From: Candidatus Omnitrophota bacterium
GTDB taxonomy: Bacteria > Omnitrophota > Gorgyraeia > Gygaellales > Profunditerraquicolaceae
Reading direction: 5' to 3'
Assembly (NCBI GenBank): GCA_023227985.1
Contig: JALOCB010000003.1
Coordinates: 5,260-69,259, forward strand
DNA length: 64,000 nt
Shown here one piece after another: positions 1 to 21,925 of the stretch. Positions within the stretch are counted from its first letter, which is position 1. The number at the start of each line of letters is the position of its first letter. The position numbers and the translations under genes were made by a program. The notes beneath the pieces are model-generated. The model saw only the letters and a list, made by a program, of their open reading frames with translations, ran no database searches and had not been told where the DNA came from.

Positions 1-579
1 AGAATGATCCAGCGTCTGGCTATTAATAATGGTACTGCCCACGGCAATAACTATGACGCTGACGGTAAACTTATTGAAACACAGATGAATTTGAAGATGA
101 CCGCGGCGATCGCCGAAGTTATTAAGGCGTATGGTATACAGATAGTCCAGCACGGCGTGACCGGAACGCCTATTAAAAATCTCCAGGCATTGCGTAATGT
201 CGGGATCAGGGCCGCTCATGTCGGGACCAATTGGCAGAATATTATTTGGGAAACTTTAGTTGCCCAGGCGCAGGCGGGTAATTCGACCGCTAAGTCCATA
301 GTAAACCGGATGATCGATGCGACTATCGCTAAGACTGCGGACGTGGAGAAGAAGTATAAAGTATCCGGCCGAAGCGCAGAAGCCAAGGATAGCGTTTATG
401 TCCCGGGAAAAGACAAGAACCTGGACAAGCTGATCGGTAAAGAATTAAAGATGGTATTAGGTGTTTTCAACGACGAGTTGGTTGCTCTTCCTGATGACTT
501 GATTGCCAAGATTGATGAGGCCACCGAAAAATCCGCTACCGAGCATATGCTGGGTTTCGGTTCTGACGGAACAGCCCAG
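1..579 (+). other. Domain: class II FBA, C-terminal two-thirds (N-terminal part lies upstream of the window)
   Basis: LAINNGTAHG and IVQHGVTG match the two His-containing metal-ligand strands. GFGSDGTA matches the conserved FGSxGKA C-terminus of class II aldolases. Confidence 0.75.
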
Positions 580-3500
580 ATGGTAAAGGATGATTATGCG
601 GTTCAGGGGTTGGTTTATCCTGAAGATTTCTCCTCGATCAAAGGATTATATGCCTTTAAGGCGCTCGAAGGAACGGATAAGACGATTATGTGTTGTAATA
701 TACGTTCGCCTCTAAGCATTAGGGGTATTATGCGCGCGGCCCAAAAAACAGGCAGCGTGGTTATTTTTCAGCAGGCAATGAGCGAATTCGATTATACCTG
801 GAAAGGCGGCTATGCCCCGGAGAATGCGGCTAAGCTTGCCCGTAATATCAAAGAAGCTGCAAAAAAAGAAAATTTCCACGATTTCATGATTAAGGGCGAT
901 CATCTTACGGTTAAAGTTGATGATGCTTTCTTGAAGGATAAGGCGGCGCAGGATGCTGTTGCTGTGGTATTTGAGAAAATATTGGATGAACAGGATGTTT
1001 CCAAGCGGGAAGCATTGTTCAACGCTGCATCCAAAGACGAAGTTCTTTTAGCCAATGCCGGCGTAGCTAAAGCAATGAAAGCGGTAAATAAGGCTATGAC
1101 CTTGATCAAAGAAGAAGTTGCTTCGGATTTCACTGTTTTTGCTTTAGACGCGTCATTTATGCCTACCAGGCTTAATGTCCTGGTCAGCGCTTACCTGGCG
1201 GGGTTTATTCCCCAGGATGCAGGTTTGGAAGCTGAAGTTGGCGAGATTGGCGGAAAAGAAAATTCCACGGTTGCCGACGCGTTGGAATTCATTACCGGTA
1301 TCAGGTTCAAGGAAGAGGTTGTGGTCAGCCAGGGAGTGAAATATTCTCAGCTGGTCGGTCCGAGAAGGATCGGTGTTCTTACCGGCGGCGGACCTGCTTC
1401 CGGGCATAACGCGGTGATCGCGGCAATGGTCCGCGAAGCGGAGCAGCGGGGGATCGAGATCGTGGCTATCCCTGAAGGTTGGGCTGGTTTGACCAAGGAT
1501 GAAGTAGCCGCGCAAGCCAAGGTTATAACTATTAAAGATGTGGAAAAGTGGGGGAAGAAAGGCGGCACAATGCTGGGGACCAGCCGCACCAATCCGTATA
1601 AGAAAGAAGGGGACGCCCAGAAGGTTTGGGATAATATCCAGAAGTTAAAGCTTGACGGTCTGGTAACTCTCGGCGGTGATGATACCAACGGGGTTACTTC
1701 CAAACTGCAAAAAGAACATCCGGATTACTTATTCATTGGTCTGCCTAAGACCATGGATAATGATATAGCGCTTCCGGAGAGTGACGCGCAGACCTATGGT
1801 TTTGACAGCTTTACCGTCAAGGCCTCTGAATCGTTCGAGGCTGGAAAGATTGACGCGCAATCTACCCATAGGATACTGATCGCTGAAGTTTTTGGAAGGG
1901 CGGCCGGATTCGTTTCTGCGCGTATCGGGGCCAATATAGGGGCTACCCGCACACTGATCCCTGAAGAATTGGTTGATCTTTCAAAGTTAGTCGAGGATCT
2001 GCGCAGCTATTATAAGAATAATAAATACGGGGTTGTTGTGGTTGCCGAAGGGGCAAGCGTCAATGTTGATGGTTTCAAACTGGATGAAAACGGGGAATTG
2101 ACAGTTGTTAAGCCCGAAGACCCGGATGTAAAATTGTTGCTGGCCGCATTTAAGAGCGATCCTATGGCCAAAGCGGCTTTTATCAAGTCTATGAAAGCCG
2201 AGATGGATGATTTTGGCCACAAAAAACTGGAGAATGTCGGTCTTATTGTCGCAGCTGTGGTAAAAACCGCGTTAAAGGCGGATAAGATCGATATTAGCTT
2301 CGCCGGTAAAGCGGATTATCTTTTTCGCTCCGCCGATGTTTCCAAATTGGACGCTGAAATGACCACTATGCTGGGGAAGGCCGCTGTGGAGAAGATCGCG
2401 GATATCCAGAATGATCAGTTGCTTTACGCTTACAAGGGGCAGATTAAATCCATACCGTTTGCCCGGGAATTAGGCGGAAGGGTCCTGGATTACAAAGGCG
2501 CCCATAAAGATGAATATATGTTGGCCAACCTGGCGCTTATTGATGAAAAAACTGAAATAACGCTTTCGGATGCATCGGTTAATGAGGACTTGTTCCAGGC
2601 AGCGGTTAGAAACTTAAAAGGACTTAACCCGGGCGAATTAATGACTCTGAGTTTTTCGGAGATGAAGGTTTTGTTATGGAAGCTTAATAGCCTTGATCAA
2701 GAAACCGGGGACAATCAGGAAGTAGTTCAGTCTGTCAGAAGGATTCTGCATAGGATAGACGACAGGCAGATAGAACAGGTCAAGAAATTTGCCAATATCG
2801 GCGTGTTTGCCCGAGAAAATACTGCGTATAACCTGGAATCAGTGCTTAAGGATGACAATATCCTGGTTATCGCGGCTAACGCGCTTATTTTTCGCGCCGG
2901 AGCCTTTGCCGAATTCTATCATAATTGGGAGCCGGGAGTTAACCTCGCGGCGATCAAGTCTATGAAAGGCGGCAAAGAAGCTACTGCCGAGGAATTTGTC
3001 CGGCAGAACAGCCGTTATAACGGACCTTTTAGCCCGTATCAGTTAAAAGGTTTGCGCGTGCTTAAGGATGAACGCCGGGTGATTGATGGTGTCGCTGTTA
3101 ATTTCATTTTCGTGCCCGCGGATAAGAATATCGGAAGGCCGGATATCAAGATACCATATTTCGGCCCGGAAACAACTAACCAGCAGGTGCTTGATACTAT
3201 GAAGGCCTTAGGTTTAGAGTTGGATGTCATGGCCTATTACGGCCCGACCAGCGAAACGGTTCAGCCCAGGATATTCAAGGAGTTCATTGAGGCTGGATTG
3301 CCTGTTGTAGCAGCTTCTCCGGTCAACACCGACGCTGTAAAAAATATGCTCAAAGCTAAGTTTCAGCAGGAAGGTGTTGCGGATGATATGCTGGATGAAG
3401 CGGTGAGTAAGGCTTTTAAGGAAGGTTTGTATTCCGCTACCCGTAAAGAAATCGGCGCGGATGTCAAGATCGTGGATACTTTAAGCTGCACTTCCAATGC

Positions 3501-4767
3501 CATGATTTCGGTTATTAAAGCAATGTGGGATAAGTTCGGTATCGATCATGGTACCGGCCTGACTATTCATTCCCAGACTGATTCCAATGAGACTTTCCCG
3601 ATGAAAAGCGGCAGGGCCAGGGATCCCCTGGATATCGCCCGCGGCGATTCCATCCGTGACAACATAATCCCTGCTTCAACCGGCGCAAAAAAGAACCTCT
3701 TTAAGATGATCCCGGAATTAAAAGGCAGGTTCGAGATCACCGCTGTTCGCACCGGTACTGTTTCGGCTTCGACCTGGGAGATGACCATGGACCTTAAGAC
3801 TGAAGTGACCAGGGATGATGTCCTTGCGGCTTTAAAGGATTTCGCCCTGAATAAGACCGACGGGGTGGTGAAATTTCACGAAGGAGACCCGGACAGGAAT
3901 CCCGGGCCTCTGGACGCCAACGCCGTGGTCGGCTGGAATAATGTTTCTATTATCGACAGTTTATTGATCAATGTTCTGGATAATAAGAAAACAGTGACTA
4001 TTAAAGGTTTGTATGATAACCAATCAGCGGCGCCGAATCAAATGGTTTCTAAATGGTCGCCGTGGATGGTTGACGGTTTAAGGCTGCGCCAGATAGTCGG
4101 CGAAAAGAACAGCAAAAAGCTGAACAAAGCCGAAGCTGTAGCGTATGCCAAACTCAACGCCGGTTATGCCGGCCTGCTTAAAGCCGTAAGCGCGGTAAAA
4201 ACCAGCGGAGCTCTGGTGGTCAGCGCTGACGTGGTCTTAAAGAACGCCGGGACGCTTTCATCGCTCAAAGCCTTGAAAGAATCAGGCGCTCTTATTGAGA
4301 TCATTGTCCAGGCGAACAACAAGGCTGTCGCTGATAAAATGGTATCAATGGGCGTTGAACAATTCGCGAGCATTCAGTTCAAGCAGGTTAACGCGATAGT
4401 AGAAGAGTTGAATACCAAAGGTATAACTGATGAAAGAATAGTAGTGCTTAAGACCAAAGCTGAATCGAAAGAAGAAGTCAAGAATACCGTCAAGGTGGTC
4501 AATGTCGGCGAAGCTAAAGTCGCCGAATCTTCTGTTAATGCCATGTCGATAGCAGTGGCAAAGGCAGTAACCACCGTGTTGCAGGATAATACGGAGGTTG
4601 TTGATCAATATCAGCAGATGGCGAAGAATTACGCCGAAGCTAACGACGTCGAGCTAAGCAAACTGGAAGATCTGACCAGCCAGATCTCGGATATGCCGCT
4701 GGTTAAGGTGAGCGAAGAAGTGGTCAAGGCTCAGGTTACTTACGAAGAAACTGTAAACAAGATCTAA
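1..4767 (+). CDS. Giant glycolytic fusion protein 1 (5' partial, frame open to window edge): class II fructose-bisphosphate aldolase + truncated aldolase-like copy + PPi-type 6-phosphofructokinase + GAPDH-like + shared C-terminal module
   Basis: Uninterrupted frame from nt 1 to TAA at 4765-4767. Motifs: LAINNGTAHG, IVQHGVTG, GFGSDGTA (FBA II); GVLTGGGPASGHN, LGGDDTNG, PKTMDNDI (PFK-A family); SCTSNAM, IIPASTGAKK (GAPDH). Confidence 0.85.
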   Translation, partial: RMIQRLAINNGTAHGNNYDADGKLIETQMNLKMTAAIAEVIKAYGIQIVQHGVTGTPIKNLQALRNVGIRAAHVGTNWQNIIWETLVAQAQAGNSTAKSIVNRMIDATIAKTADVEKKYKVSGRSAEAKDSVYVPGKDKNLDKLIGKELKMVLGVFNDELVALPDDLIAKIDEATEKSATEHMLGFGSDGTAQMVKDDYAVQGLVYPEDFSSIKGLYAFKALEGTDKTIMCCNIRSPLSIRGIMRAAQKTGSVVIFQQAMSEFDYTWKGGYAPENAAKLARNIKEAAKKENFHDFMIKGDHLTVKVDDAFLKDKAAQDAVAVVFEKILDEQDVSKREALFNAASKDEVLLANAGVAKAMKAVNKAMTLIKEEVASDFTVFALDASFMPTRLNVLVSAYLAGFIPQDAGLEAEVGEIGGKENSTVADALEFITGIRFKEEVVVSQGVKYSQLVGPRRIGVLTGGGPASGHNAVIAAMVREAEQRGIEIVAIPEGWAGLTKDEVAAQAKVITIKDVEKWGKKGGTMLGTSRTNPYKKEGDAQKVWDNIQKLKLDGLVTLGGDDTNGVTSKLQKEHPDYLFIGLPKTMDNDIALPESDAQTYGFDSFTVKASESFEAGKIDAQSTHRILIAEVFGRAAGFVSARIGANIGATRTLIPEELVDLSKLVEDLRSYYKNNKYGVVVVAEGASVNVDGFKLDENGELTVVKPEDPDVKLLLAAFKSDPMAKAAFIKSMKAEMDDFGHKKLENVGLIVAAVVKTALKADKIDISFAGKADYLFRSADVSKLDAEMTTMLGKAAVEKIADIQNDQLLYAYKGQIKSIPFARELGGRVLDYKGAHKDEYMLANLALIDEKTEITLSDASVNEDLFQAAVRNLKGLNPGELMTLSFSEMKVLLWKLNSLDQETGDNQEVVQSVRRILHRIDDRQIEQVKKFANIGVFARENTAYNLESVLKDDNILVIAANALIFRAGAFAEFYHNWEPGVNLAAIKSMKGGKEATAEEFVRQNSRYNGPFSPYQLKGLRVLKDERRVIDGVAVNFIFVPADKNIGRPDIKIPYFGPETTNQQVLDTMKALGLELDVMAYYGPTSETVQPRIFKEFIEAGLPVVAASPVNTDAVKNMLKAKFQQEGVADDMLDEAVSKAFKEGLYSATRKEIGADVKIVDTLSCTSNAMISVIKAMWDKFGIDHGTGLTIHSQTDSNETFPMKSGRARDPLDIARGDSIRDNIIPASTGAKKNLFKMIPELKGRFEITAVRTGTVSASTWEMTMDLKTEVTRDDVLAALKDFALNKTDGVVKFHEGDPDRNPGPLDANAVVGWNNVSIIDSLLINVLDNKKTVTIKGLYDNQSAAPNQMVSKWSPWMVDGLRLRQIVGEKNSKKLNKAEAVAYAKLNAGYAGLLKAVSAVKTSGALVVSADVVLKNAGTLSSLKALKESGALIEIIVQANNKAVADKMVSMGVEQFASIQFKQVNAIVEELNTKGITDERIVVLKTKAESKEEVKNTVKVVNVGEAKVAESSVNAMSIAVAKAVTTVLQDNTEVVDQYQQMAKNYAEANDVELSKLEDLTSQISDMPLVKVSEEVVKAQVTYEETVNKI
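586..1308 (+). other. Domain: second class II aldolase-like segment, truncated after the EAEVGEIGG strand
   Basis: IMCCNIRSPLSIRGIMRAAQKTGSVVIFQQ, IKGDHL, FALDASFMP and LEAEVGEIGGKE follow the order of FBA II strands 1-6. The GTxHG and HGxSG strands are absent before the PFK domain starts. Confidence 0.55.
1357..2493 (+). other. Domain: 6-phosphofructokinase, PPi-dependent type
   Basis: RIGVLTGGGPASGHN, GGDDT (nt 1672-1686; Asp where ATP-PFKs have Gly), PKTMDNDI, VVVAEGA, DDFGHKKL. Confidence 0.8.
2851..4083 (+). other. Domain: glyceraldehyde-3-phosphate dehydrogenase-like
   Basis: Catalytic-Cys motif SCTSNAM (Cys codon 3487-3489), LTIHSQTD, NIIPASTGAKK, PELKGRFEITAVRTGTVSAS. The N-terminal dinucleotide loop is degenerate (ILVIAANALIFRAG instead of INGFGRIGR). 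Confidence 0.7.
4156..4764 (+). other. Shared C-terminal module, copy 1 (alpha/beta-looking part plus conserved helical tail)
   Basis: Aligns over about 200 aa with the C-terminus of ORF 4926..12698. 25 of the last 34 residues are identical, and a 20-nt stretch ctgaccagccagatctcgga is identical at 4672-4691 and 12603-12622. Confidence 0.8.
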
Positions 4768-4925: not shown

Positions 4926-5156
4926 ATGTTCGTAAGGTTATCCCAAAACAACCTGTTCAGGAAGATCGTCGGCATTCTTATTCTTTTACAATTTTCAGCC
5001 GGTTTTGCCGTGATTAGGGGTTATGCTGCTCCCGGAAATTTGCGGCCTGCCGCCGTCAAACAGGATGGTTCCCGGTCCGGGACTATCCAGAATTCGCTTG
5101 ACGCGGCCAGCCTGGATAAGGTTATAAAAACCCCGGTCATTCATAAGGACGGCGGT
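4926..5156 (+). other. Shared N-terminal leader, copy 1 (basic N-terminus, hydrophobic stretch, RGYAAPGNLRPAAVK, then KDGG)
   Basis: Position-by-position alignment with the N-terminus of ORF 12779..17302. Confidence 0.75.
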
Positions 5157-8100
5157 ATAACCGGCCAGGATGTTTTTAAGAATATCCTTGGCGAATACCG
5201 TGTTTCCTCCACGATAAACAATCTCGCTTTCGGGACGTTCGTCCAGGGGCAGATCGACCTTAGTTCGGTTCAGAACCGGGAAGCGCTGGTCAATAATTTC
5301 GGGGAGATTAAGAGCAAAGATCGTTTTTTTACCCTTGAATACGCGGGAATTCCGCTTGCCCTGGTCAAGAAGGCCGAAACCGGAGAAATTACCGTCAAGA
5401 AAGTAGTCGAAGACATTGCTTCGATCCCGCTCAACATCCTTTCCGACAATGCCGAAAAGCTCAAAACCGAAGGTGTTACTTCCTCGGATATCCTGGTCCG
5501 CGATTTTCTTATCCTTGAAAAAAGGTCGCGTATCGACATCACTCAGTGCATGACCGTAGAGTTTGGCGAGCTGCGCGACTACGTATACAATCTGGCTAAA
5601 AATGTCGGCCAGGAAAAGGCACTGGAGATGGCATCGGCGTTTGCGGGTAAGGCTACCGTTGACGAGGCTATGGCGGAAGTCGGCGAGAAAGCTAAGCAGT
5701 TAGGCCGCGACCAAGCGAAGGACACAGGTCTGGCGCTGGCCGGCGGTAAGGGTTTGAGCCTTTCGGTCATGAGCCGCGTGGTTGACGTGCCGCCTGGTTT
5801 GAACGTTACTACTACCGCGTATTTTAAGTTCGTCAAAGATAATAAACAGGTCTGGGAGAAGATCTTTAATGAGCTGCAGACCTTGGATACTATGGATGAC
5901 CAGAAGCGCGACGTTGTCACTTCGGAGATCCGCGATGTCATTAAAAGCGCGCCGATACCCGAAGACATCAAGGCTGAGGTAACAGCAATGTACCACCAGC
6001 TAAGCGTTATCCGTTTTCTTGCCGGTAAACCTTCGCCCGCTCCGGTGGCTGTCCGCTCTTCCGGCACCAAAGAGGATATTCACGTTAAAACCTGGCTGCC
6101 GGTTTCCACCGGTTCCCAGGCCGGCCAGTCGGATACATTCCTTAATGTTAAGGGCGAACGGGATGTCCTGGATAAATTACGCGCCGATTGGGCGTCTTTA
6201 TTTACCGATCGCGCGGTCAGCTACCGTGATGACGCCACCTTCTTGCAGTTCTCTGGAGCCATCGATTTTAACGGTAAGACTTCTCAGGATGTCTATTGGG
6301 GGATCGTGGCGAAGCTTCGGGAATACTCCAAGAAACTGGATAAGCCTGAATATAACGTGTACGCTGACTTAATGAGTAAAGTCACCAGCCCTAACCCTGG
6401 GTCGGTGAGCCTGATGAACGCCATGGAGGAGATCCTGAGACAGGAATCGAATCCGGAGATGTCCAATGCCCTTGCCGTTCTGAAGAAGAAAGCAGAGGAG
6501 GTTGTGCATCCCGAACAGATCGGTATCGACGTTGTGATCATGCAGATGGCTAAGAGTTATCTTGCCGGCGTGCTTTTTACCGTCAATCCGGCGACCAAGA
6601 TGGCCGGTGTGGCCCAGTCGTTATACAAGTCATGGTATATGGGTGATGATTCGCTCGTGTACCGCGACGCGAAGACCGATATTATCCAGGGAACCAGGCC
6701 CATAGTGGTGAGCTTTGATGTGGCCTTCGGCTACGGCGAGAACGTAGTCGGCGGCAAGGTAAACCCGGACAAGTTCATTATGGGCACCTACGACGGCGAG
6801 AGCTGGTTTGTTATCGAGAAAAGCAAAGGCAATAAACTTATTCAGATGAAGGACGTGGAAGAAGTCATCGATCTCCTCAAAGACAAGATATCGGAAAAGG
6901 GCCAGCGGCAGCTCGCTATGACCGTGAAAGACGCGATCGCGTATGATGAGGTCGGCAAGCGGATCAACGGCATTATGGCGACCAAACTCTACGGTATCAA
7001 GTATCTTAAGGCGCTTGAGGGTAAAGAGGAAAGCGATAAAGACAAGAAGGCCCGCGTACAGGCTATCGCCAATGAGATTGCCGACATGGTCAAGAATAAG
7101 GTTTCCGAGGATGAAGTTGTCGCGTTCATCAAGGGTAACTTTGAGGTCGTTAACCGGAAGGGCTATAAAGGCATTCAGGAAATGGCGCTTTCGGGAGTGG
7201 TCAGGGAAGTGTTTGAGAAAGTCCAACAGGCCCAGGCTGAGACCGACCGGGGTATGTTTAAACTCTCAAAGCAGCTCGGCGATATGGGAAAGGCCGATAC
7301 GCTTATCCATATGATCAAGGAGGTTTGGGAGAATAAGGAATTTACTCTTTCCGACCGCCAGGCGATTCTTGACAAACTGAACCTTACCAACCAGGAATTG
7401 CGTAATATGAGTTACCTTATCCGCGCGCTGGTGGATAATAGCTTTACTTCAAATTATGAGACTACTTTAACCCACCAGGATACCTTTACTATGACCGATG
7501 ATCAGGCCCAGTATGTGGCGCGTATGGGTTGGGCGATCACCGAATATTATAAGGATGCCCGAGATATAGAGTATGCCATCGAGATAGATAAAACCGCTTC
7601 TTCCGACAAAGCGGTGAGGCTTTACGTTGTGGACGACCTGGGCAATGTCCAGGGAATGGACAATAATGGCAACCTGGTAACGGTGAAGTCCGAAAAGGAT
7701 AAAGCGCGTATAAAAGAAGCGAAGCTGCGCCTGTATAACGTGCAGGCCCGTCCGTATACCGCGGAATACTTGAAGGTGGATGTAATGCGCGCCCGGACCG
7801 AAGCGGATGAAAAGTGGCTTGAGGAGAATTCTCCTAAAGCGATTGCCAGCGGGACTAAGGGAGAGAACGCGACGCAGGGTTATGTGCTGGTGTTCGATCC
7901 TAACAAAGACGTTGCCTGGCACGCGGACCAGATCCGTCGTTTGAAAGCCGGAGATTTTACTGCGGAGGAAAAAGCCCAGATCATGGCTATGGGGTTTAAT
8001 CCCGAAGAGTATGGTTCAGGCAAAGAAAAGCAATTGTCGGTTATTCTTTATCTGCTTGAAGCTGACCCGAATCATGATCCGATCATGCGCCTGGTTGATT

Positions 8101-11100
8101 CGGTTGTTACTATCCGCGGCGGCGATACCTGCCACGCGGCTATCTTTTGCCGTGAACAAGGGATCCCTGCGGTCACCGGCGCGGGCAAGGTTATACTCAA
8201 CGGCCAATTGCTTAAGACCGGTGACGCGGTTACCGTTGATGCTAATAACGGGAATATTTACGAAATGCCCGCTGATGCCGGAGCGCGCATTCCGATCAAC
8301 TACGTGAAATTCAAGATTAAACCGTATGGCATCCCCGGCGACGACGACAATATGCCGTATCCGGGCATCGGCCAGATCATCGCCGCGGCAAGTGCCGCTC
8401 AGCAGAACTCGCCTATTATGCTTGCGGTTGACGCGGTCGGTAACTCGCTGACCCGCGCCGAGTTCAAAGGCGAAGAGATCGGTATCAACGTTTACGCCGG
8501 CTATGGCCATTATCTTTTACAGCAGATCAAGGCCGGAAAAATAAAGGAGCCAGTGAGGGTGCGTGTCCAGGAATTGATCCAGGGCAAGGTTCCCGGCGCA
8601 AAGAGGTTCGTGGACAATATTGAAAATGTTATGGCAGGCGCTTTTGCCAAGGATCCCGCCGCGCGTTCGGCATATCGCGACATTATGGGTAAGGATTTCA
8701 ATAAGGCGGATAGCCTGCAATTGCTGGAGTTTTTCGATTTGAAGAGCGACATTGAGCTGTATGGATTGGATGCGCTTAAACTGGTAAAACAGCAGGTTGA
8801 TATTCTTGATCTCGTTCCCCGGCTTCCGGAGAATATGTATCAGACGCTTGAATATCTTTATGGCGCCACTCAGCGCAGGCTCAACTATGATTATAATATT
8901 ATCGCCGATCTTCAGAACCATCCGTGGATACTGAAAGAAGTCGATTCTAAACTCGCGGAAAAGGGTTACGCGACGTTCAAGGAATACATCACTAACGAAT
9001 TCCTGTATTTTTACAATTTGATGGGTTTTACCATTGCGCCCGATCAGACCGCCAAGAACAGGGCTTACGATTTCGCCCAGGATAAGATCCGCGGCATGCC
9101 CGGTTCCGAGGTTTTTTCCTGGCCCGGAGTCAATCCGTTGGTCGGTTTGCGCGGTACGTCGTTGGAGATCGAGGCCTTTGACGAAGATTTCGGCGGCAAT
9201 CAGCTGGTATTGGATTTTCTTTTTGATTCCGTGATCCAGGCGCACCAGAATACCGGTAACCAAGCCTGGTTTTATGTGTTTGTCCGTTCTTCCCGGGAGT
9301 TAGAGACCCTGGATAAGATCATTGAGCACAAGGCTAAGCAGACCGGGAAGCTTCCGAAAGAGATCGGGATCATGATCGAAGTTCCCAGTGCCGCTTTGGT
9401 GGCTGATGAGCTTGCTGTTAAGATGTCCGAGATGGAGAAAAAATATAAGAAGTATGGCGTTGAGCATACTTTCTTTTCCTTCGGCACTAACGACTATTCG
9501 CATCTTGCTGGTATGGGTGACCGTGAAGACCCGCGAATGAAACTCAAGATTATGGATCCCGCAGCGATCGAAGCGATCGGCGAGATGAAAGCAGCGGGGT
9601 ATTATTATGATGATGCTGCTAAAGTGCTTCCGTTGATTGATGAAGGCGCTGATGTTATGCAGCAGCTTATGGAAACAGTGGTTGCTGCGGCTAATGGTTC
9701 AAGCGTGGCTACCTCGCTTTGCGGCGAGGCGATCACCGCCCTGGTTAACCGCGGGGATTATGAGACCGCAGGCAAGATAATGGCGCTTCTGGATTCTTTC
9801 GGCGTGAGCATGATGAAAGTCCGCCTCGCAGCTTCAATGACGCGCGTGGACACCATGGCGGCTACCAAAGGGATCACCATTCCGGAAGCCGGACGTTCGA
9901 TCCTGTTCGATTTGTCTGCCGGCGAGGTGAAACAGAAAAAGGGCGTCATCAAGGGCGAGATAATATTCGTTGATAATGCCGATGATCTCGTCCCGAACGT
10001 CCTTAAAGGCCTTCAGGGTCCGGAGCTGACGAAAAAGAAAGAGATGTTCAAGCTCCAGAGCCTGGAAAACGCCCGTTCGACTATGCGTACCTTCAATAAG
10101 ATCGTAATTATCACTAAAAACCTCGTTGCTCAGCAGGAGCCTGAGTTGGTCGCGGAGATGGGCAAAGCCGCATTCAGCAAGTTTGTCAATGACGGCCTGC
10201 TTAAAGATATCGGTAATGGGCAGTATGTCTGGACGAATCTGGGTGTAAAGACGGAGAAGTTCAACCAGGAATTGACAATTCAAGGTTTCTCTGAAAAAGA
10301 ACGTAAAGCTATTGAAGGTTTGTGGCAGAAGGCCTGGGATAACAGCATTGAAGGGCTTGAGCGCCGCGGAATTGATTGGGATGATCTACAATATGCCAAG
10401 GCTATAATCGTTGATGCGGACGTTAACCTTGATGGCTGGGATGTGTTCCGCAAGGACAAGAGTATTATTCCGACCCGTATCAAGGCTACGGTCAAAGGTA
10501 TAAGCTCCCGCCGTGCGGAGTTAGAAGGGCAATTGGCAACTATAGATTACGCCGCTAAGAAGGTCTACAAGGATTTTCTCAGCGTGGAAAAGATCGCTGC
10601 CGTCCTGCGCAGTCTTCCTATCCCAGCGGAAAAGCCTATGATAACTACGCAATCGGCTGTCGCGGAGAACGCCAACAGTGTATACCAGAAGATCGGGTAT
10701 CATCCTAAGCTCCTTCTTGCCTATGAGCGGAATGCTGTGAATGAACTTGGAAAGATATTCGAGGAATATGTAGGCAAGCTGGTTGAAGAAGTTGAAAAAG
10801 TTACTCAGGAGACCGACGTTCAGAAACGCGTATGGCTTTTACAGAAACTGCAGAATAAAGTTGGCGGGCTTGCGGAACCGATGATCAAATCGTTTATGAG
10901 CGATGTGCTTTCCGAGGCCATGCGCACAGGTGCGGTAACGCTGCCGGATAACTGGAACAAGAAGCTTTGGGAGGCCTATCGCAGCGACCTGGAAAGCGAG
11001 ATCAGTAAGATCCTTAACGGAAAGACGGTTGAGCAGTATTTTATCGCGCAGTTCAGCGAACAGATGAAGGAAGTGCTCTCCGCCAACAAAGGGGCATTGG

Positions 11101-12698
11101 TTGTCCATCTTTTGGGAAGCCTCAACTGTGTTGATTTCTTTAATATGAAAGGCGGTTTCCTGGTTGAACAGGTCAATCCCAACCCTGATTACGGCATTCT
11201 TGGAGCGGCGCGCGCAATAGGGGATATGTGGGAGATAAACCGCATGGAATTGTCCGCTTTTAAGGCGGTATGGGATAATCTGCCGGTTGACCAGCGCGGT
11301 AATTTTGGCCTGCAGATCACCAATCTCAAAGGCACCCAGTCCGGCGCGGTGGTGATCGGCTGGCGTAATATTCTGAAACAAACCGGTATTATCCCGGGGC
11401 AAGACGGTTTGCAGGTTGGCGTCAATATCGTCACTCCGGCGGATAGCATCGCTGCGGATAAGTATTTTGAGTACTTTAATACGCTCGGAAGCGGGTTAAG
11501 TTTTATCTCATATGATGCGTTGAAGCTTGGCGCTGCCTGGGCCGGCGTGGATATTTTTTGGAAGGAATGGAGGAGGCTGGCTAAGGAAGATGAGTTGTTG
11601 AGGTTCGGCGTCATGACCGGCTGGATGGCGGAAGCCAAGGCTCTGAGGTTCGGCGGCAAAGTCCTTTCCTTTGATATTTCTGACGAAGCCAAACAGACTG
11701 ACGGCGGCGCTGAGGTTGTGCCTTACCGGGTAGTGGTGGAGAATCTCTTCCGGGGGATCATTAAGAAATATGATGCTTTGGATAACGGCCAAGCTCTTTC
11801 TCTCGAAAAAGAAGAGTTGGAGGCAATACTCTGGATCTTGAATTCTTCTCCTTTTGAGAATATGTCAAGCCCGTTTGCCGCGATCAAGAGTATGAAGAAT
11901 ATCAGGAATGTGATCGAAAGGCTCAGCGATGACCAAAAGAAGGCCCTAAGTGTACTTTCACAGGGCTTGGTTTTTGTCAATCACGGGCTGGATAAAAAGG
12001 TGGCGGCATTGCTCGTAGACAAGAAGTTGCTCGACACCGCATATGAATCCGACACGGCGGTATATAAAGGGTTGAACAGCGGTTTTGACAGCTTCGCCAA
12101 TGCCTTGAAAGAGGTTAAGAATGCCGAGGGCGCTTTAGTGGTTAGCGCAAATGCTGTGTTGAATAACGCCGGAACGCTGAGAGTCCTGAGAGAAATAAAA
12201 GAAACCGGGCTGACCTTGGAAATAATCGTCCGGGCTGATACGGAAGATCAGGTGAATAAGCTGATTGCCCTTCGGGCAGACGAAGTCGCGACTATCCAGG
12301 CCAAGCGGCTGTCAGTTGTGCTCAGCGGCTTGAAGAACGCGGGTATAACCGATGGCAAGATAGTGGTGATTAAAGGCAAAGAAGAAGTAAAAGACGCGGT
12401 AGAAGCCGGCGTAAAGGTCGTAGAGATCTCCATGCCTAAAACAGAGGAGTCCAGTATCAACTCCATGGCCTTAGTTGCGGCAAAAGCGGTAATCATAGTG
12501 TTAAATGGTGAAGAAACGGTTGCCGCGCAATACCGGGAAATGGCGGTAAAATACGCCGCAGATAACAGCGTAACCTCTGAAGAATTGGATGATCTGCAGG
12601 ACCTGACCAGCCAGATCTCGGAGATACCCATGGCCAAGGTCAGCGAAGAAGTCGCTAAGGCGCAGGCCACTTATGAGGAGACTATAAGCAAGATATAA
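4926..12698 (+). CDS. Giant fusion protein 2: leader + PEP-utilising dikinase (PPDK/PpsA family) with large insertions + degenerate duplicate of its His and TIM-barrel domains + shared C-terminal module
   Basis: 2590-codon ORF with GGAGGG 4 nt upstream of the ATG. Motifs: LAGGKGLSLSVM, VAVRSSGTKEDI, GSQAGQSDTFLNV, IRGGDTCHAAIFCREQGIPAVTG (His codon 8133-8135), FFSFGTNDYSHL, SLCGEA. Confidence 0.85.
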   Translation: MFVRLSQNNLFRKIVGILILLQFSAGFAVIRGYAAPGNLRPAAVKQDGSRSGTIQNSLDAASLDKVIKTPVIHKDGGITGQDVFKNILGEYRVSSTINNLAFGTFVQGQIDLSSVQNREALVNNFGEIKSKDRFFTLEYAGIPLALVKKAETGEITVKKVVEDIASIPLNILSDNAEKLKTEGVTSSDILVRDFLILEKRSRIDITQCMTVEFGELRDYVYNLAKNVGQEKALEMASAFAGKATVDEAMAEVGEKAKQLGRDQAKDTGLALAGGKGLSLSVMSRVVDVPPGLNVTTTAYFKFVKDNKQVWEKIFNELQTLDTMDDQKRDVVTSEIRDVIKSAPIPEDIKAEVTAMYHQLSVIRFLAGKPSPAPVAVRSSGTKEDIHVKTWLPVSTGSQAGQSDTFLNVKGERDVLDKLRADWASLFTDRAVSYRDDATFLQFSGAIDFNGKTSQDVYWGIVAKLREYSKKLDKPEYNVYADLMSKVTSPNPGSVSLMNAMEEILRQESNPEMSNALAVLKKKAEEVVHPEQIGIDVVIMQMAKSYLAGVLFTVNPATKMAGVAQSLYKSWYMGDDSLVYRDAKTDIIQGTRPIVVSFDVAFGYGENVVGGKVNPDKFIMGTYDGESWFVIEKSKGNKLIQMKDVEEVIDLLKDKISEKGQRQLAMTVKDAIAYDEVGKRINGIMATKLYGIKYLKALEGKEESDKDKKARVQAIANEIADMVKNKVSEDEVVAFIKGNFEVVNRKGYKGIQEMALSGVVREVFEKVQQAQAETDRGMFKLSKQLGDMGKADTLIHMIKEVWENKEFTLSDRQAILDKLNLTNQELRNMSYLIRALVDNSFTSNYETTLTHQDTFTMTDDQAQYVARMGWAITEYYKDARDIEYAIEIDKTASSDKAVRLYVVDDLGNVQGMDNNGNLVTVKSEKDKARIKEAKLRLYNVQARPYTAEYLKVDVMRARTEADEKWLEENSPKAIASGTKGENATQGYVLVFDPNKDVAWHADQIRRLKAGDFTAEEKAQIMAMGFNPEEYGSGKEKQLSVILYLLEADPNHDPIMRLVDSVVTIRGGDTCHAAIFCREQGIPAVTGAGKVILNGQLLKTGDAVTVDANNGNIYEMPADAGARIPINYVKFKIKPYGIPGDDDNMPYPGIGQIIAAASAAQQNSPIMLAVDAVGNSLTRAEFKGEEIGINVYAGYGHYLLQQIKAGKIKEPVRVRVQELIQGKVPGAKRFVDNIENVMAGAFAKDPAARSAYRDIMGKDFNKADSLQLLEFFDLKSDIELYGLDALKLVKQQVDILDLVPRLPENMYQTLEYLYGATQRRLNYDYNIIADLQNHPWILKEVDSKLAEKGYATFKEYITNEFLYFYNLMGFTIAPDQTAKNRAYDFAQDKIRGMPGSEVFSWPGVNPLVGLRGTSLEIEAFDEDFGGNQLVLDFLFDSVIQAHQNTGNQAWFYVFVRSSRELETLDKIIEHKAKQTGKLPKEIGIMIEVPSAALVADELAVKMSEMEKKYKKYGVEHTFFSFGTNDYSHLAGMGDREDPRMKLKIMDPAAIEAIGEMKAAGYYYDDAAKVLPLIDEGADVMQQLMETVVAAANGSSVATSLCGEAITALVNRGDYETAGKIMALLDSFGVSMMKVRLAASMTRVDTMAATKGITIPEAGRSILFDLSAGEVKQKKGVIKGEIIFVDNADDLVPNVLKGLQGPELTKKKEMFKLQSLENARSTMRTFNKIVIITKNLVAQQEPELVAEMGKAAFSKFVNDGLLKDIGNGQYVWTNLGVKTEKFNQELTIQGFSEKERKAIEGLWQKAWDNSIEGLERRGIDWDDLQYAKAIIVDADVNLDGWDVFRKDKSIIPTRIKATVKGISSRRAELEGQLATIDYAAKKVYKDFLSVEKIAAVLRSLPIPAEKPMITTQSAVAENANSVYQKIGYHPKLLLAYERNAVNELGKIFEEYVGKLVEEVEKVTQETDVQKRVWLLQKLQNKVGGLAEPMIKSFMSDVLSEAMRTGAVTLPDNWNKKLWEAYRSDLESEISKILNGKTVEQYFIAQFSEQMKEVLSANKGALVVHLLGSLNCVDFFNMKGGFLVEQVNPNPDYGILGAARAIGDMWEINRMELSAFKAVWDNLPVDQRGNFGLQITNLKGTQSGAVVIGWRNILKQTGIIPGQDGLQVGVNIVTPADSIAADKYFEYFNTLGSGLSFISYDALKLGAAWAGVDIFWKEWRRLAKEDELLRFGVMTGWMAEAKALRFGGKVLSFDISDEAKQTDGGAEVVPYRVVVENLFRGIIKKYDALDNGQALSLEKEELEAILWILNSSPFENMSSPFAAIKSMKNIRNVIERLSDDQKKALSVLSQGLVFVNHGLDKKVAALLVDKKLLDTAYESDTAVYKGLNSGFDSFANALKEVKNAEGALVVSANAVLNNAGTLRVLREIKETGLTLEIIVRADTEDQVNKLIALRADEVATIQAKRLSVVLSGLKNAGITDGKIVVIKGKEEVKDAVEAGVKVVEISMPKTEESSINSMALVAAKAVIIVLNGEETVAAQYREMAVKYAADNSVTSEELDDLQDLTSQISEIPMAKVSEEVAKAQATYEETISKI
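5688..6845 (+). other. Domain: dikinase N-terminal ATP-grasp (nucleotide-binding) region
   Basis: GGKGLSLS..VPPGLNVTT, VRSSGTKED, QAGQSDTFLNVKG, DRAVSYR, IDVVIMQM..AGVLFTVNP. Confidence 0.75.
7833..8270 (+). other. Domain: phosphohistidine swivel domain
   Basis: GTKGENATQGYVLVF ... ILYLLEADPNHDPIM ... TIRGGDTCHAAIFCREQGIPAVTGAG ... GDAVTVDANNGNIY. Confidence 0.8.
8343..9845 (+). other. Domain: PEP/pyruvate-binding TIM barrel
   Basis: NPLVGLRGTS, GIMIEVPSAAL, FFSFGTNDYSHL, SLCGEA. Confidence 0.75.
9918..11675 (+). other. Degenerate duplicate of the swivel and TIM-barrel domains; catalytic His and GTND motif lost
   Basis: GVIKGEIIFVDNADDL ... AKAIIVDADVNLDGWDVF ... GQLATIDYAAKKVY mirrors the swivel-domain layout without the His. 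EQVNPNPDYGILGAARAI, LQVGVNIVTPADSIAAD and LSFISYDALKLG mirror NPxLGxRG, MIEVPSAAL and FSxGTNDL. Confidence 0.5.
12078..12695 (+). other. Shared C-terminal module, copy 2
   Basis: EGALVVSANAVLNNAGTL..LEIIVRAD..ATIQ..GITDGKIVVIKGK...DLTSQISEIPMAKVSEEVAKAQATYEETISKI aligns with copy 1. Confidence 0.8.
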
Positions 12699-12778: not shown

Positions 12779-12961
12779 ATGTCCAGGCCGTCTAAAAACA
12801 ATAGTATCTCTAAAATAATTTCCGGCGTTGTGATCGCGCAATTTATCATGAGCAGTATAGCCCTGCGCGGTTATGCCGGCACAGACAATTTAAGGCCGGC
12901 TCCGGTCAAAGATTCCGACCGGATAAGCGTTCTGGCCGATGAATTGCAGAAAGACGGCGGC
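12779..12961 (+). other. Shared N-terminal leader, copy 2 (RGYAGTDNLRPAPVK ... KDGG)
   Basis: Aligns with 4926..5156. Confidence 0.75.
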
Positions 12962-17399: not shown

Positions 17400-18701
17400 A
17401 TGTTAAGGCGCATCAGGACAATTAAAAAAAAGGTTAAAATCATATTCTGCGCGGCAGCCGCGGTTTGTGCGGTTGTGTGTTTTTTACCGGTAACCTGCCA
17501 GGCGGGTATGGCGGGTAGTGAACAGATAAGCGCGCTAAGCTTAAAAGGCATCCAATGGGAGAGCCTGCCGGGCGGGGGGACGCGCTTAAAGATCTTTGCT
17601 GACGGCTTAAAGGCCGGAAGGTTTGAGCCATTGATCGATCCGGAAGAGTCCGGGCGCAGGTTAATGGATTTTTTTATCCTGGGTTTGAATGTCCGGGAAG
17701 ACAAATTCTGGGCCAATCTTACTCCCGGCGATCCGGATAATATCATTGACCCGGATTTGGCCGGGACGCCCTTAGGCGAGGTTATGCTCAGGGCGGACCT
17801 GAGATTGAAAAAAGATTTCTGTGAATTGACCAACCCGCAGTTTTCCCAGCCCGGCAAAAAATACTGGGCAGCCTTATCGGAAAAAGCGGCGGAACTGGGC
17901 ATTAAGAAAATACCCGCGATGAACCGCGTGTGGATAGTCCCGGAAGAGGCTGCGGTTTATGAGGCCGGAAACGGGGCTTATATAACCGAAAGCCGGCTTA
18001 AGGTCTGCCTGAAAATAAATTATTCAGCCGGTCTTCTTAAGGACGGCGGCGGTAAGGCGTACGGCGAACTTTCGGAGTATGCCGGAGAATTGGTAAGGGA
18101 TATTATTTTGCCTGAATTGGATAAAAGGGTTAATGAGGATTTCCTCTATGCTGACCTGAGGCAGGTAAATAGGGCATTGATACTGGCCAGATGGTATAAT
18201 AACAAATTCGGCGATGGCGGGGGATTTAATTTAAAAAATACCCTGACAGCATCGAGCCGGCCTGAGATAAACGCGGGCTTGCTAAAGAAACAGATATATG
18301 ATGATTACATGGATTCTTTGAGCAATGGCGAATATGTGGTCGTCGGGCCGTCAGGCTGGTCCAGCGCATTGGATTATTTAAGGCCTAAGAAACGTTATAT
18401 CAGCGGAGGTGTTGATTTGCGCAAAAGTCCGGCAAGGCGCAGCCCGGCGCCTGCGGCAGCCTGGCAAGGCCGGGATCCGCAGTTTACATTTTTAGTGGAA
18501 ATATCCGCGCAGGCAGTTATGTCCGCGGGAGATAAAAATAATGCGATAAATGATTTTTCCGTCATAGGAAATATCGGGGATAATAATGTAGAAGGGCTAA
18601 TCCGGGATTTGCCGGGAATATCGCCTTCGCGTAATAACCGGGATGCGGAAACCGATATAAATAAAGGCGTTATAAGCGATATGGTATTATATAGTTTATA
18701 A
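17400..18701 (+). CDS. Hypothetical exported protein (N-terminal signal-like hydrophobic segment)
   Basis: 433-aa ORF. N-terminus KKKVKIIFCAAAAVCAVVCFLPVTCQAG. I recognise no family motif. Confidence 0.5.
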   Translation: MLRRIRTIKKKVKIIFCAAAAVCAVVCFLPVTCQAGMAGSEQISALSLKGIQWESLPGGGTRLKIFADGLKAGRFEPLIDPEESGRRLMDFFILGLNVREDKFWANLTPGDPDNIIDPDLAGTPLGEVMLRADLRLKKDFCELTNPQFSQPGKKYWAALSEKAAELGIKKIPAMNRVWIVPEEAAVYEAGNGAYITESRLKVCLKINYSAGLLKDGGGKAYGELSEYAGELVRDIILPELDKRVNEDFLYADLRQVNRALILARWYNNKFGDGGGFNLKNTLTASSRPEINAGLLKKQIYDDYMDSLSNGEYVVVGPSGWSSALDYLRPKKRYISGGVDLRKSPARRSPAPAAAWQGRDPQFTFLVEISAQAVMSAGDKNNAINDFSVIGNIGDNNVEGLIRDLPGISPSRNNRDAETDINKGVISDMVLYSL

Positions 18702-19549: not shown

Positions 19550-19679
19550 TCTTGAGCTCAAGATCCCCACAGTAATAAAAGCCTTGACCAGGCAATTAAC
19601 CTGTGTTAAATTCGAATATTGTCTTCATTAGCCATTTCTGTAATATTCTGTTATCTCGTTCATATTTAGGAGGGGAATA

Positions 19680-20996: not shown

Positions 20997-21006
20997 GGTT
21001 TAGCCA

Positions 21007-21921: not shown

Positions 21922-21925
21922 AAAA

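What the first reader, a model, noticed from the sequence alone, without database searches (positions are those of the whole stretch)
4156..4767. Conserved non-enzymatic C-terminal module with a near-invariant terminal helix shared by the megaproteins
ORF1 (nt 4156-4764) and ORF2 (nt 12078-12695) end in the same module of about 200 aa although their enzyme content is unrelated. The consensus runs GALVVSAxxVLxNAGTL..L(I/E)IIVxA..(A/S)(S/T)IQ..GITDxxIVVxK..SS(V/I)N(A/S)M..AKAV..VL, followed by ..DLTSQIS(D/E)xPxxKVSEEVxKAQxTYEETxxKI. 25 of the last 34 residues are identical, and a 20-nt run is identical at 4672-4691 and 12603-12622. ORF3 (16751-17299) ends in a much more divergent module with the same strand/helix rhythm. 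Inference: this is a common assembly, docking or targeting domain. It is comparable in logic to encapsulation peptides, dockerins or CTD sorting signals, and could bring the three polypeptides together or to a common location. I cannot assign it to a known family by eye.
Basis: partly seen in the sequence, partly recalled or inferred. Interest (0 to 1): 0.8.

Follow-up and report, generated by a model that had tools for sequence, protein, structure and literature searches.

The report
Shared dead-phosphatase-fold tail on exported glycolytic megaproteins
Three huge fused glycolytic enzymes of an Omnitrophota bacterium end in the same ~205-residue, apparently non-catalytic domain, which tags a whole set of signal-peptide-bearing sugar-metabolism enzymes encoded next to the phylum's giant genes and probably brings them together or to one place.

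Summary
The ORF1 and ORF2 tails are 47% identical over 206 aa (E 5e-57). 25 of the last 34 residues and a 20-nt run are identical. The ORF3 tail is a divergent homolog (hhalign 95%, E 3e-8).

The module has no Pfam or NCBIfam model. A profile search of 1.84 billion proteins finds 92 relatives, almost all at the extreme C-terminus. Seven of eight source-named clusters are Omnitrophota. Carriers hold FBA, FBPase, PFK, GAPDH, TIM, PGK, enolase, PPDK/PEPS, GPI and aldose epimerase. Complete carriers also share a signal-peptide-like N-terminus followed by a [DN][NH]LRP…DGG motif.

In four independent contigs the order is giant gene (13,000–32,000 aa), a conserved ~510-aa protein, then the carriers. 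PilZ and a sugar ABC importer follow the carriers in the one locus that extends far enough (L013), and in the window and four shorter loci.

Best reading: a phylum-specific docking or assembly domain that co-localises an exported glycolytic enzyme set. Binding itself is untested.

The parts
1..4767 (+). ORF1 (N-terminus cut by the window edge): class II FBA / PFK / GAPDH multienzyme that carries the module
   Evidence: Pfam and NCBIfam hits. Full-length orthologs P0004 (1697 aa, 73% id) and L003 938-5983 (83% id) have the N-terminal leader.
4156..4764 (+). C-terminal module of ORF1 (pseudo-HAD domain); the finding's coordinates
   Evidence: 47% identical to the ORF2 tail. Module HMM hit E 1e-60. 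AF2 pLDDT 95.5, pTM 0.92.
4207..4539 (+). Rossmannoid, HAD-like alpha/beta core of the ORF1 module (residues 23-133 of the modelled 208 aa starting at nt 4141)
4684..4764 (+). Conserved 'PLVKV' beta-hairpin plus terminal amphipathic helix SEEVVKAQVTYEETVNKI of ORF1
   Evidence: Strands 182-189 and helix 192-207 at pLDDT about 95. P186 50/51, Q198 42/51 and Y201 48/51 conserved.
4926..12698 (+). ORF2, 2590 aa: leader plus expanded PEP synthase/PPDK-like enzyme plus module
   Evidence: Ortholog P0053 is 57% identical over the full length.
4926..5069 (+). ORF2 N-terminal leader: signal-peptide-like segment, then GNLRPAAVKQDG
   Evidence: 40% identical to the ORF3 leader.
12078..12695 (+). C-terminal module of ORF2
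   Evidence: 63-65% identical to the tail of the L003 PPDK, although the enzyme parts are only about 22% identical.
12779..17302 (+). ORF3, 1507 aa: leader plus TIM / PGK / enolase plus divergent module
   Evidence: Ortholog in L003 at 86% identity.
12779..12913 (+). ORF3 N-terminal leader (…ALRGYAGTDNLRPAPVKD…KDGG)
16751..17299 (+). Divergent module of ORF3
   Evidence: hhalign against A3: 95% probability, E 3.3e-8. 91% identical to its L003 ortholog, so under strong constraint.
17400..18701 (+). 433-aa secreted/lipoprotein-like protein of unknown family directly after the carriers
   Evidence: No Pfam or NCBIfam hit. 69% identical syntenic ortholog in L003.
18827..19549 (+). Tandem PilZ protein (both RxxxR / DxSxxG motif pairs present), a conserved neighbour of carrier operons
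   Evidence: Pfam PilZ 4e-19. Sequence read. PilZ lies directly downstream of carriers in L002, L004 and L007 and L013.
19680..22774 (+). Sugar ABC importer (solute-binding protein plus two permeases) that closes the conserved locus
   Evidence: Pfam. Same order in L003, L004 and L013. Described downstream of Omnitrophota giant genes in 10.1101/2023.11.21.568195.

Best explanation
The module is a lineage-specific (Omnitrophota), catalytically dead derivative of the HAD phosphatase fold. It serves as the common C-terminal docking or assembly domain of a dedicated set of glycolytic and gluconeogenic multienzymes.

Each carrier is built as N-terminal Sec-type leader with a conserved [DN][NH]LRP…DGG extension, then one to three sugar-phosphate enzymes, then the module. 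Carriers are encoded in a row immediately downstream of the phylum's giant ('Archaeovorin'-type) gene and a conserved ~510-aa protein, and upstream of a PilZ protein and a sugar ABC importer.

Proposed mechanism:
1. The leader takes the polypeptides out of, or anchors them on the outer face of, the cytoplasmic membrane.
2. The module binds a common partner through the conserved surface formed by the former HAD active-site face, the INxMPLV segment and the terminal hairpin and helix. The partner could be another module, the leader of the next polypeptide, the ~510-aa protein or the giant protein.
3. The pathway enzymes therefore end up in one assembly or at one location.

Shown here: homology, family size, strict C-terminal position, predicted fold, loss of catalytic motifs, cargo theme and synteny.
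Inferred: export, and the binding function and partner.
For: - Homology among the three tails.
- 92 relatives in 1.84 billion representatives. The module ends 0-9 residues from the C-terminus in all 49 full-coverage hits examined.
- No Pfam, NCBIfam or PDB sequence family.
- AF2 with 51 sequences: pLDDT 95.5, pTM 0.92, one domain including the terminal helix.
- HAD motif I DxD is replaced by G-A-N (S-A-D/N in the window) and motif II Ser/Thr by W-A. No invariant Asp, Ser, His or Cys.
- Cargo is restricted to sugar-phosphate metabolism. Catalytic signatures of enolase, GAPDH and PPDK were read directly.
- Of 59 M-starting carriers of at least 400 aa, 47 have the N-terminal hydrophobic segment, and 45 of those have an L[RK] shortly after it. 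The N-flank net charge is +3.4 against +0.9 for the C-flank. The 12 without the segment look like fragments.
- Tandem carriers occur in L003, L005 and L006.
- Giant gene, then ~510-aa protein, then carriers in L008, L011, L012 and L013. PilZ and the ABC importer follow the carriers in L013, in the window and L003, and PilZ in L002, L004 and L007.
- The tail is conserved at or above the level of the enzymes: ORF2 tail 64% against 22% for the enzyme part. Tails are shared across different cargo: FBPase-FBA against PGK 76%, L003c against L005 PPDK 75%.
Against: - No binding or oligomerisation was computed or measured.
- The conserved polar residues at the former active-site face (N35, K46, N133, S105) could equally form a small-ligand site.
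- The giant protein's C-terminus and the ~510-aa protein lack the module, and no receptor domain was identified.
- Export of ATP-, NAD- and PEP-dependent enzymes is biochemically puzzling. The leader could be an uncleaved membrane anchor, and no signal-peptide predictor was available.
- The fold assignment rests on a predicted model. Foldseek against PDB gave no hit at E <= 1e-3 and TM <= 0.37.
- One carrier cluster is labelled as a Deltaproteobacteria MAG.
Confidence: 0.5

Rival explanations
1. The module is a C-terminal secretion or sorting domain. After Sec export, a dedicated machine recognises the folded tail and moves the cargo across the outer membrane or fixes it to the surface. The T2SS/T4P-like system reported upstream of Omnitrophota giant genes is a candidate. 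This is the logic of T9SS C-terminal domains.
For: - The architecture of signal peptide, cargo and conserved domain at the very C-terminus is that of T9SS cargo.
- Leader and module co-occur on the same proteins and on no other ORF of the loci examined.
- Tails are exchangeable among cargo.
- A secretion-system cluster is reported upstream of giant genes in 10.1101/2023.11.21.568195.
Against: - Cargo is confined to one metabolic theme, unlike general secretion tags.
- The fold is alpha/beta HAD-like, not the T9SS beta-sandwich, and there is no NCBIfam sorting-domain hit.
- No secretion genes were seen in the window ORFs scanned.
- The giant protein and other secreted-looking locus proteins lack the module.
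Confidence: 0.2
2. The module is a regulatory sensor. The remodelled HAD pocket binds a phosphorylated metabolite or nucleotide, or the adjacent PilZ/c-di-GMP protein, and tunes the attached enzymes together.
For: - Conserved residues cluster at the C-terminal ends of beta1, beta2 and beta4 and in the INxMPLV segment. This is where HAD enzymes bind phosphate (the topological argument is inferred).
- A PilZ protein with intact c-di-GMP motifs is a conserved neighbour.
- All cargo act on phospho-sugars.
Against: - No conserved Asp, Ser or Thr, or Lys at the HAD motif positions that normally hold phosphate and Mg.
- A sensor need not sit strictly at the C-terminus or keep an invariant terminal helix.
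- Allosteric domains are usually specific to one enzyme, not shared by more than ten different enzymes.
Confidence: 0.15
3. The module is still an enzyme with a non-canonical mechanism, for example one that supplies the phosphoglycerate mutase step missing from the fused set.
For: - No mutase domain was found in ORF1-3.
Against: - The nucleophile Asp and general acid/base Asp are absent family-wide. The only invariant residue is Ala, and the near-invariant ones are N, N, L, A, P and Y.
- A canonical iPGM is encoded elsewhere in the window (47544-48830).
- The same module sits on every kind of enzyme, which is unlike a pathway step.
Confidence: 0.05

Closest known systems
HAD-superfamily phosphatases, especially capless (C0) members such as MDP-1 (PDB 1u7o)
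   Different: Catalytic motif I (DxD) and motif II (S/T) are replaced, and motif IV keeps at most an N-S..D remnant. There are about 75 extra C-terminal residues: two long helices, a hairpin and the terminal helix. No significant sequence match (E 0.04-0.4). It is always a C-terminal appendage of other enzymes.
Inactive HAD-like C-terminal domain of vertebrate CMP-sialic acid synthetase (PDB 3ewi)
   Different: Found on one enzyme family only. No signal peptide, no operon of differently loaded carriers, no conserved terminal helix. The function of the Omnitrophota module is untested.
Tim50 / FCP1-SCP1-type pseudo-phosphatase receptor
   Different: Eukaryotic, membrane-anchored receptor rather than a tag on cargo. 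No sequence relation was shown, and peptide binding by the module is pure conjecture.
Cellulosome dockerin-cohesin system and its scaffoldin-first gene clusters
   Same: The layout matches: a very large scaffold-like gene first, then a row of enzymes, each with an N-terminal signal peptide, catalytic domains and a common C-terminal module. The comparison with cip-cel type clusters is from my own knowledge.
   Different: The module is about 205 aa alpha/beta, not the ~70-aa Ca-binding dockerin. There is no Pfam dockerin or cohesin hit. No receptor repeats were identified in the giant protein. The cargo is glycolytic, not polysaccharide-degrading.
T9SS C-terminal sorting domains (Bacteroidota)
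   Same: Sec leader plus cargo plus a conserved folded domain at the extreme C-terminus, shared by many cargo proteins.
   Different: Different fold (beta-sandwich of about 80-100 aa), different phylum, broad cargo range. No TIGR04183-type hit.
Archaeovorin-type giant proteins and their conserved locus in Omnitrophota (West-Roberts et al., bioRxiv 10.1101/2023.11.21.568195)
   Same: Same locus. The paper reports pilZ, solute-binding proteins, transporters and glycosyl hydrolases downstream of giant genes. It also reports TIM, GPI, FBPase, PGM, FBA and PPDK-like domains predicted extracellular. Relatives of the window show giant gene, then ~510-aa protein, then carriers.
   Different: The paper places glycolytic-like domains inside the giant proteins. 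In the passages I read it does not describe separate leader-plus-module carriers, and its text has no occurrence of 'C-terminal domain'. The giant protein's C-terminus lacks the module.

Membership tests
HAD (haloacid dehalogenase-like) superfamily | Rossmannoid three-layer alpha/beta core with the HAD strand order and a helical turn ('squiggle') after strand 1 | tested here: met
HAD (haloacid dehalogenase-like) superfamily | Motif I DxD (nucleophile and acid/base Asp) at the end of strand 1 | tested here: not met
   The family consensus at that position is G-A-N. Window ORF1 has S-A-D and ORF2 has S-A-N. The first Asp is never present, and the middle Ala is invariant in 51/51.
HAD (haloacid dehalogenase-like) superfamily | Motif II Ser/Thr at the end of strand 2 | tested here: not met
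   The consensus is V-W-A (W in 42/51, A in 41/51), aligned to HAD 'A-T-S-T' in the 3kbb alignment.
HAD (haloacid dehalogenase-like) superfamily | Motif III Lys and motif IV acidic pair (DD / GDxxxD) at strand 4 | tested here: inconclusive
   Strand 4 ends in 'L-I-n-S-x-l-D' (S in 37/51). This may be a remnant of G-D-S-x-x-D with the key Asp changed to Asn. K46 (45/51) lies on helix 1, not at the motif III position. No coordinates were available to check geometry.
HAD (haloacid dehalogenase-like) superfamily | Significant match to a HAD sequence model | tested here: not met
   No HAD family among the Pfam hits, even at E <= 10. NCBIfam TIGR02253 E 0.042. PDB profile search: 3ddh E 0.067, 3kbb E 0.4. 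All are below significance, although concordant.
Dockerin (type I/II) | About 70-aa duplicated Ca-binding F-hand segments; Pfam PF00404 | tested here: not met
   No Pfam hit. The module is about 205 aa and alpha/beta.
T9SS C-terminal sorting domain | About 80-100-aa beta-sandwich matching TIGR04183/TIGR04131 | tested here: not met
   No NCBIfam hit on the tails or the whole proteins. The fold is alpha/beta.
T9SS C-terminal sorting domain | Architecture of Sec signal peptide, cargo and domain at the extreme C-terminus | tested here: met
   Signal-peptide character is judged from charge, hydrophobicity and small residues only, because no predictor was available.
Encapsulation peptide / encapsulin cargo-loading peptide | Short terminal amphipathic helix or peptide set off from the enzyme by a flexible linker | tested here: not met
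   The terminal helix (192-207) and the preceding hairpin are modelled at pLDDT about 95 as part of the domain.
Encapsulation peptide / encapsulin cargo-loading peptide | Shell (BMC-H/P) or encapsulin genes in the genome | not tested
   None appeared among the 23 window ORFs scanned with Pfam. The rest of the genome is not available.
Omnitrophota giant-gene (Archaeovorin) locus | pilZ, solute-binding protein, ABC permeases and GH-like genes downstream | tested here: met
   Window 18827-27684. Same order in L003, L004 and L013. Described in 10.1101/2023.11.21.568195.
Omnitrophota giant-gene (Archaeovorin) locus | Giant gene (>10,000 aa) immediately upstream | not testable with these tools
   The window starts inside ORF1. 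In the contigs of the orthologs a gene of 30,339 / 31,973 / 14,254 / 13,480 aa lies upstream, followed by a ~510-aa protein.

The most novel reading that the evidence does not exclude
Omnitrophota nanobacteria run a scaffolded, extracytoplasmic (periplasmic, surface or prey-facing) glycolytic assembly. Nearly all glycolytic and gluconeogenic enzymes are exported by a special leader. The pseudo-HAD module then plugs them, in a dockerin-like way, onto a partner encoded in the giant-gene locus: the giant protein, the ~510-aa protein or each other. This would be a bacterial 'glycolysome' tied to predation and under c-di-GMP/PilZ control.
Probability: 0.25. Interest if true: 0.9.

Novelty: new variant of a known kind. 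Interest (0 to 1): 0.72.

Why it matters
Glycolysis is the textbook cytoplasmic pathway of soluble, separate enzymes. Here a whole phylum of ultra-small, host-dependent bacteria encodes a parallel set of these enzymes. They are fused into megaproteins, and each carries an export-type leader and one common, unannotated C-terminal domain. They are encoded next to some of the largest genes known.

The module is the handle that makes this testable. It defines the enzyme set bioinformatically in any Omnitrophota genome. It gives a small, confidently folded domain for pull-downs, structures and localisation. It also links the enigmatic giant 'Archaeovorin' genes to a concrete biochemical pathway.

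If it is a docking domain, it would be a new natural solution for building a metabolon and a new use of the pseudo-HAD fold. If it is a sorting tag, it points to an undescribed secretion route.

Tried and rejected
- The search for homologous proteins with the ORF1 tail and with the 51-sequence alignment returned nothing, although the family exists in the representative library. I treat this as a limit of the word index, not as absence.
- The first genome-contig scan (patterns too specific) found nothing. A 7-sequence alignment found one Omnitrophota SAG.
- The 3-sequence AlphaFold model (pLDDT 70, tail below 40) suggested a floppy terminal helix. The 51-sequence model overturned this.
- hhalign of the 2-sequence profile against the ORF3 tail was not significant. 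It became significant only with the family profile.
- Foldseek against PDB gave only generic Rossmann hits. The afdb50 library was unavailable.
- Kizina et al. 2022 (PMC9004380), which I expected to mention these proteins, is not held. The Omnitrophota papers I could search do not mention fused or exported glycolytic enzymes with a common tail.
- Rejected: the encapsulation-peptide reading (helix is integral); dockerin or T9SS membership; an active HAD phosphatase; recent gene conversion as the cause of ORF1/ORF2 similarity, because orthologous tails are closer (84% and 63%) than the paralogous pair (48%).
- The divergent tails of two further leader-bearing proteins in L011 could not be tied to the family (E 0.0016 and 0.12).
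- The ~510-aa neighbour has no Pfam or PDB relative.
- The group I intron is not inside a tRNA.
Full report
**1. Observation.**
The window opens inside a long ORF (ORF1, nt 1-4767; base 1-3 is a sense codon). ORF2 (4926-12698, 2590 aa) and ORF3 (12779-17302, 1507 aa) follow on the same strand.
- Pfam and NCBIfam find class II FBA, PFK and GAPDH in ORF1.
- They find the three PEP synthase/PPDK domains in ORF2.
- They find TIM, PGK and enolase in ORF3.

The last 203-206 residues of ORF1 and ORF2 are 47% identical (E 5e-57). By hand on that alignment, 25 of the last 34 residues are identical. The 20-nt identical run is at the stated coordinates. Apart from the tail, the two proteins share only one weak ~100-aa stretch.

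The ORF3 tail is barely detectable pairwise (E 4e-4 against ORF2). It matches the family profile built later (hhalign 95%, E 3.3e-8, 155 columns) and a family member by BLAST (P0012, E 1.3e-6). It is 91% identical to its ortholog in a related metagenome contig.

**2. A family, not a local duplication.**
The tails match no Pfam or NCBIfam model. An exhaustive HMMER search of 1.84 billion representative proteins with the ORF1+ORF2 profile gave 92 hits at E <= 1e-3, of which 68 were below 1e-10. In all 49 full-coverage hits examined, the module ends 0-9 residues from the C-terminus. The few exceptions look like frameshifted or truncated calls, and one (P0080) is a repeat-protein false positive.

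Seven of the eight clusters that carry a source name are Candidatus Omnitrophota, and one is labelled a Deltaproteobacteria MAG. The one hit among GTDB species genomes is an Omnitrophota SAG.

Cargo in the carriers is thematically narrow:
- FBA, FBPase (GlpX), PFK, GAPDH, TIM, PGK, enolase and PPDK/PEPS;
- cupin-type and classical glucose-6-P isomerase, UDP-glucose pyrophosphorylase and aldose 1-epimerase;
- an NAD(P)-Rossmann domain and a metallophosphoesterase.

Database annotations name these proteins after one enzyme domain only.

**3. Structure.**
With three sequences AlphaFold gave pLDDT 70 and an unconfident tail. With a 51-sequence alignment (A3) it gave pLDDT 95.5 and pTM 0.92 over all 208 residues. 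The model has:
- a five-stranded alpha/beta core (residues 23-133);
- two long helices;
- a hairpin formed by the conserved 'PLVKV';
- the terminal helix (192-207), all at about 95.

The near-invariant terminal helix is therefore an integral element of one globular domain, not a detachable peptide.

Three independent sub-threshold sequence hits point the same way:
- 3ddh and 3kbb in a PDB profile search;
- TIGR02253 in NCBIfam.

The aligned segment is the classic HAD 'PG…L..LK..G.k.a.v(T/S)' stretch.

The catalytic signature is gone. The DxD of motif I is G-A-N (S-A-D/N in the window), and the motif II Ser/Thr is W-A. Motif IV keeps at most an N-S..D remnant. The only invariant column is an Ala. 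The near-invariant residues are N35, N133, L137, A142, P186 and Y201. I therefore call it a pseudo-HAD domain. Membership in the fold is met on a predicted model, and membership as an enzyme is not met.

**4. The carriers share a second element.**
Of 59 M-starting carriers of at least 400 aa, 47 begin with 2-3 basic residues and a hydrophobic segment. The uncharged stretch around it has a median length of about 23 residues. A small-x-small site follows, then a few residues later a conserved [DN][NH]LR[P] motif and, 15-35 residues on, a (K)DGG motif. Of the 47, 45 have the L[RK] motif. The 12 without the hydrophobic segment look like fragments starting at internal Met codons.

The N-flank carries net +3.4 against +0.9 on the C-flank. 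This favours an N-in orientation, meaning a cleaved signal peptide or a type II anchor with the bulk outside. ORF2 and ORF3 have this leader and are 40% identical over it. ORF1's leader lies outside the window but is present in its orthologs.

In the window and the loci fetched up to that point (L001-L007), the motif appears only on module carriers and ORF3-type proteins. The canonical enolase (30393-31682, minus strand) and the iPGM and ROK genes in the same window have neither leader nor module.

The enzyme domains look competent. Read directly:
- the enolase signature IKVNQNGT and SHRSGET;
- GAPDH SCTSN and TIHSQT;
- PPDK GGDTCHAAI.

**5. Genomic context.**
Carriers are encoded head to tail:
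- three canonical carriers plus an ORF3-type protein in L003, which is syntenic with the window through the 433-aa protein, PilZ and the solute-binding protein;
- two in L005 and L006.

In four independent long contigs the order is a giant gene (30,339, 31,973, 14,254 or 13,480 aa), then a conserved ~505-526-aa secreted-looking protein, then the carriers. The locus that reaches further (L013) continues with PilZ and the ABC sugar importer. The ~510-aa protein also sits directly upstream of the first carrier in L002, L003 and L005. It occurs twice in L011. PilZ lies directly downstream of carriers in L002, L004, L007 and L013.

Neither the giant protein's C-terminus nor the ~510-aa protein carries the module.

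This is the locus described by West-Roberts et al. (10.1101/2023.11.21.568195). They report pilZ, solute-binding proteins, transporters and GH genes downstream of Omnitrophota giant genes. They also report TIM, GPI, FBPase, PGM, FBA and PPDK-like domains, predicted extracellular, in 'Archaeovorins'. In the parts of the paper I read, it does not describe separate carriers, the leader or the shared C-terminal domain.

**6. Evolutionary behaviour.**
Between the window and L003, the ORF1 and ORF3 tails are as conserved as the enzymes (about 80-90%). The ORF2 tail is far more conserved than its enzyme part (64% against 22%).

Tails do not follow cargo. An FBPase-FBA protein and a PGK protein have 76% identical tails. 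A 455-aa protein and a PPDK have 75% identical tails.

Orthologous tails (84% and 63%) are closer than the ORF1/ORF2 pair (48%).

**7. Mechanism.**
The shown facts are these: a portable, strictly C-terminal, catalytically disabled, strongly constrained domain that marks co-transcribed enzymes of one pathway, coupled to an export-type leader, inside a conserved locus. They fit best a protein-protein docking or assembly role that co-localises the pathway (confidence 0.5).

The scaffold-gene-first, tagged-enzymes-after layout recalls cellulosome gene clusters.

Rivals are:
- a sorting or secretion domain in the manner of T9SS CTDs (0.2);
- a ligand or PilZ-linked regulatory sensor using the remodelled pocket (0.15);
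- a residual enzyme (0.05).

None could be tested directly. No multimer prediction or coordinates were available.

**8. Verdict.**
Its interpretation is partly supported. 'Non-enzymatic common tag' holds, 'detachable terminal helix' does not, and docking remains inferred.

The module is a new, unannotated domain family of a known fold, used in a known kind of way. It is attached to a very unusual cargo set. What deserves follow-up most is the implication that these bacteria keep an exported or membrane-tethered, fused copy of glycolysis next to their giant genes.

Noticed in passing
window 29437-29633 (-), with ORF 29756-30061 (-): A full-length group I intron match (Rfam RF00028, 61.6 bits) lies in the gap downstream of the canonical enolase/FtsB-like genes. 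It is not in an rRNA, and splicing trials gave no tRNA. A 101-aa ORF just 5' of it on the same strand looks like a small nuclease by eye. Ca. Velamenicoccus is reported to carry a group I intron in its 23S rRNA (PMC13153191), so this would be a second, differently placed copy type.
   Followed up: partly
window 4926-5069 and 12779-12913; carriers P0002-P0085: All complete carriers share a leader of basic N-terminus, hydrophobic segment and AxA-like site, then a conserved [DN][NH]LRP motif and a later (K)DGG motif. The post-signal motif matches no sorting signal I know. It may be a processing or docking element that pairs with the C-terminal module.
   Followed up: partly
L008 8452-9987; L011 5103-6620 and 18560-20071; L012 8384-9964; L013 8488-10011; L002 3163-4671; L005 1-1434; L003 6-935: A ~505-526-aa secreted-looking protein with no Pfam or PDB relative always sits between the giant gene and the first carrier. 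It occurs twice in L011. It is a candidate partner or receptor for the module. Its position would be just left of the window.
   Followed up: partly
window 18827-19549 (+): Tandem PilZ protein with both RxxxR and DxSxxG motif pairs intact. A PilZ gene lies directly after carrier genes in L002, L004, L007 and L013. This suggests c-di-GMP control of the system.
   Followed up: partly
window 30393-31682 (-), 47544-48830 (+), 41355-42593 (+): A canonical 429-aa enolase, an iPGM-type phosphoglycerate mutase and a ROK-family protein lie in the same window without leader or module. The organism therefore has at least two enolases. The fused set appears to lack a mutase.
   Followed up: partly
ORF1 aa 860-955 (about nt 2578-2865) and ORF2 aa 2270-2369 (nt 11733-12032): The two proteins share a second, weak ~100-aa segment ('…L.LS..E…LLW.LNS…', 23% id, E 7e-5). 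It lies mid-protein in ORF1 and just before the module in ORF2. The ORF1 ortholog P0004 shows the same match to ORF2. It may be a recurrent connector domain.
   Followed up: no
window 4926-12698 vs L003 6086-10621: The window's PPDK-like ORF2 (2590 aa) has weak Pfam scores: PPDK_N 183 bits and PEP-utilizers_C 42 bits. It is only about 22% identical to the compact, canonical-looking PPDK carrier of the otherwise closely related L003 (1511 aa, 332 and 227 bits). The tails are 64% identical. L003 has an extra 454-aa leader-plus-module protein with no recognisable enzyme.
   Followed up: partly
L011 6673-9774 and 20129-26422: Two more leader-bearing enzymes of the same operon (FBPase_3; TIM-PGK, 2097 aa) end in tails that the module profile barely sees or does not see (E 0.12 and 0.0016). 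More divergent tail subtypes like ORF3's probably exist, so the family is likely larger than 92 clusters.
   Followed up: partly
window 22771-29303 (+): Downstream of the ABC importer lie several large secreted-looking proteins with weak GH2/GH72-type TIM-barrel and TPR matches, or no matches at all. This is consistent with the glycosyl-hydrolase block reported downstream of giant genes.
   Followed up: no
P0019 (MGE5308203.1): One carrier cluster is deposited as a 'Deltaproteobacteria bacterium' MAG, whereas all other named carriers are Omnitrophota. This is probably a binning or classification error, but a transfer cannot be excluded.
   Followed up: no
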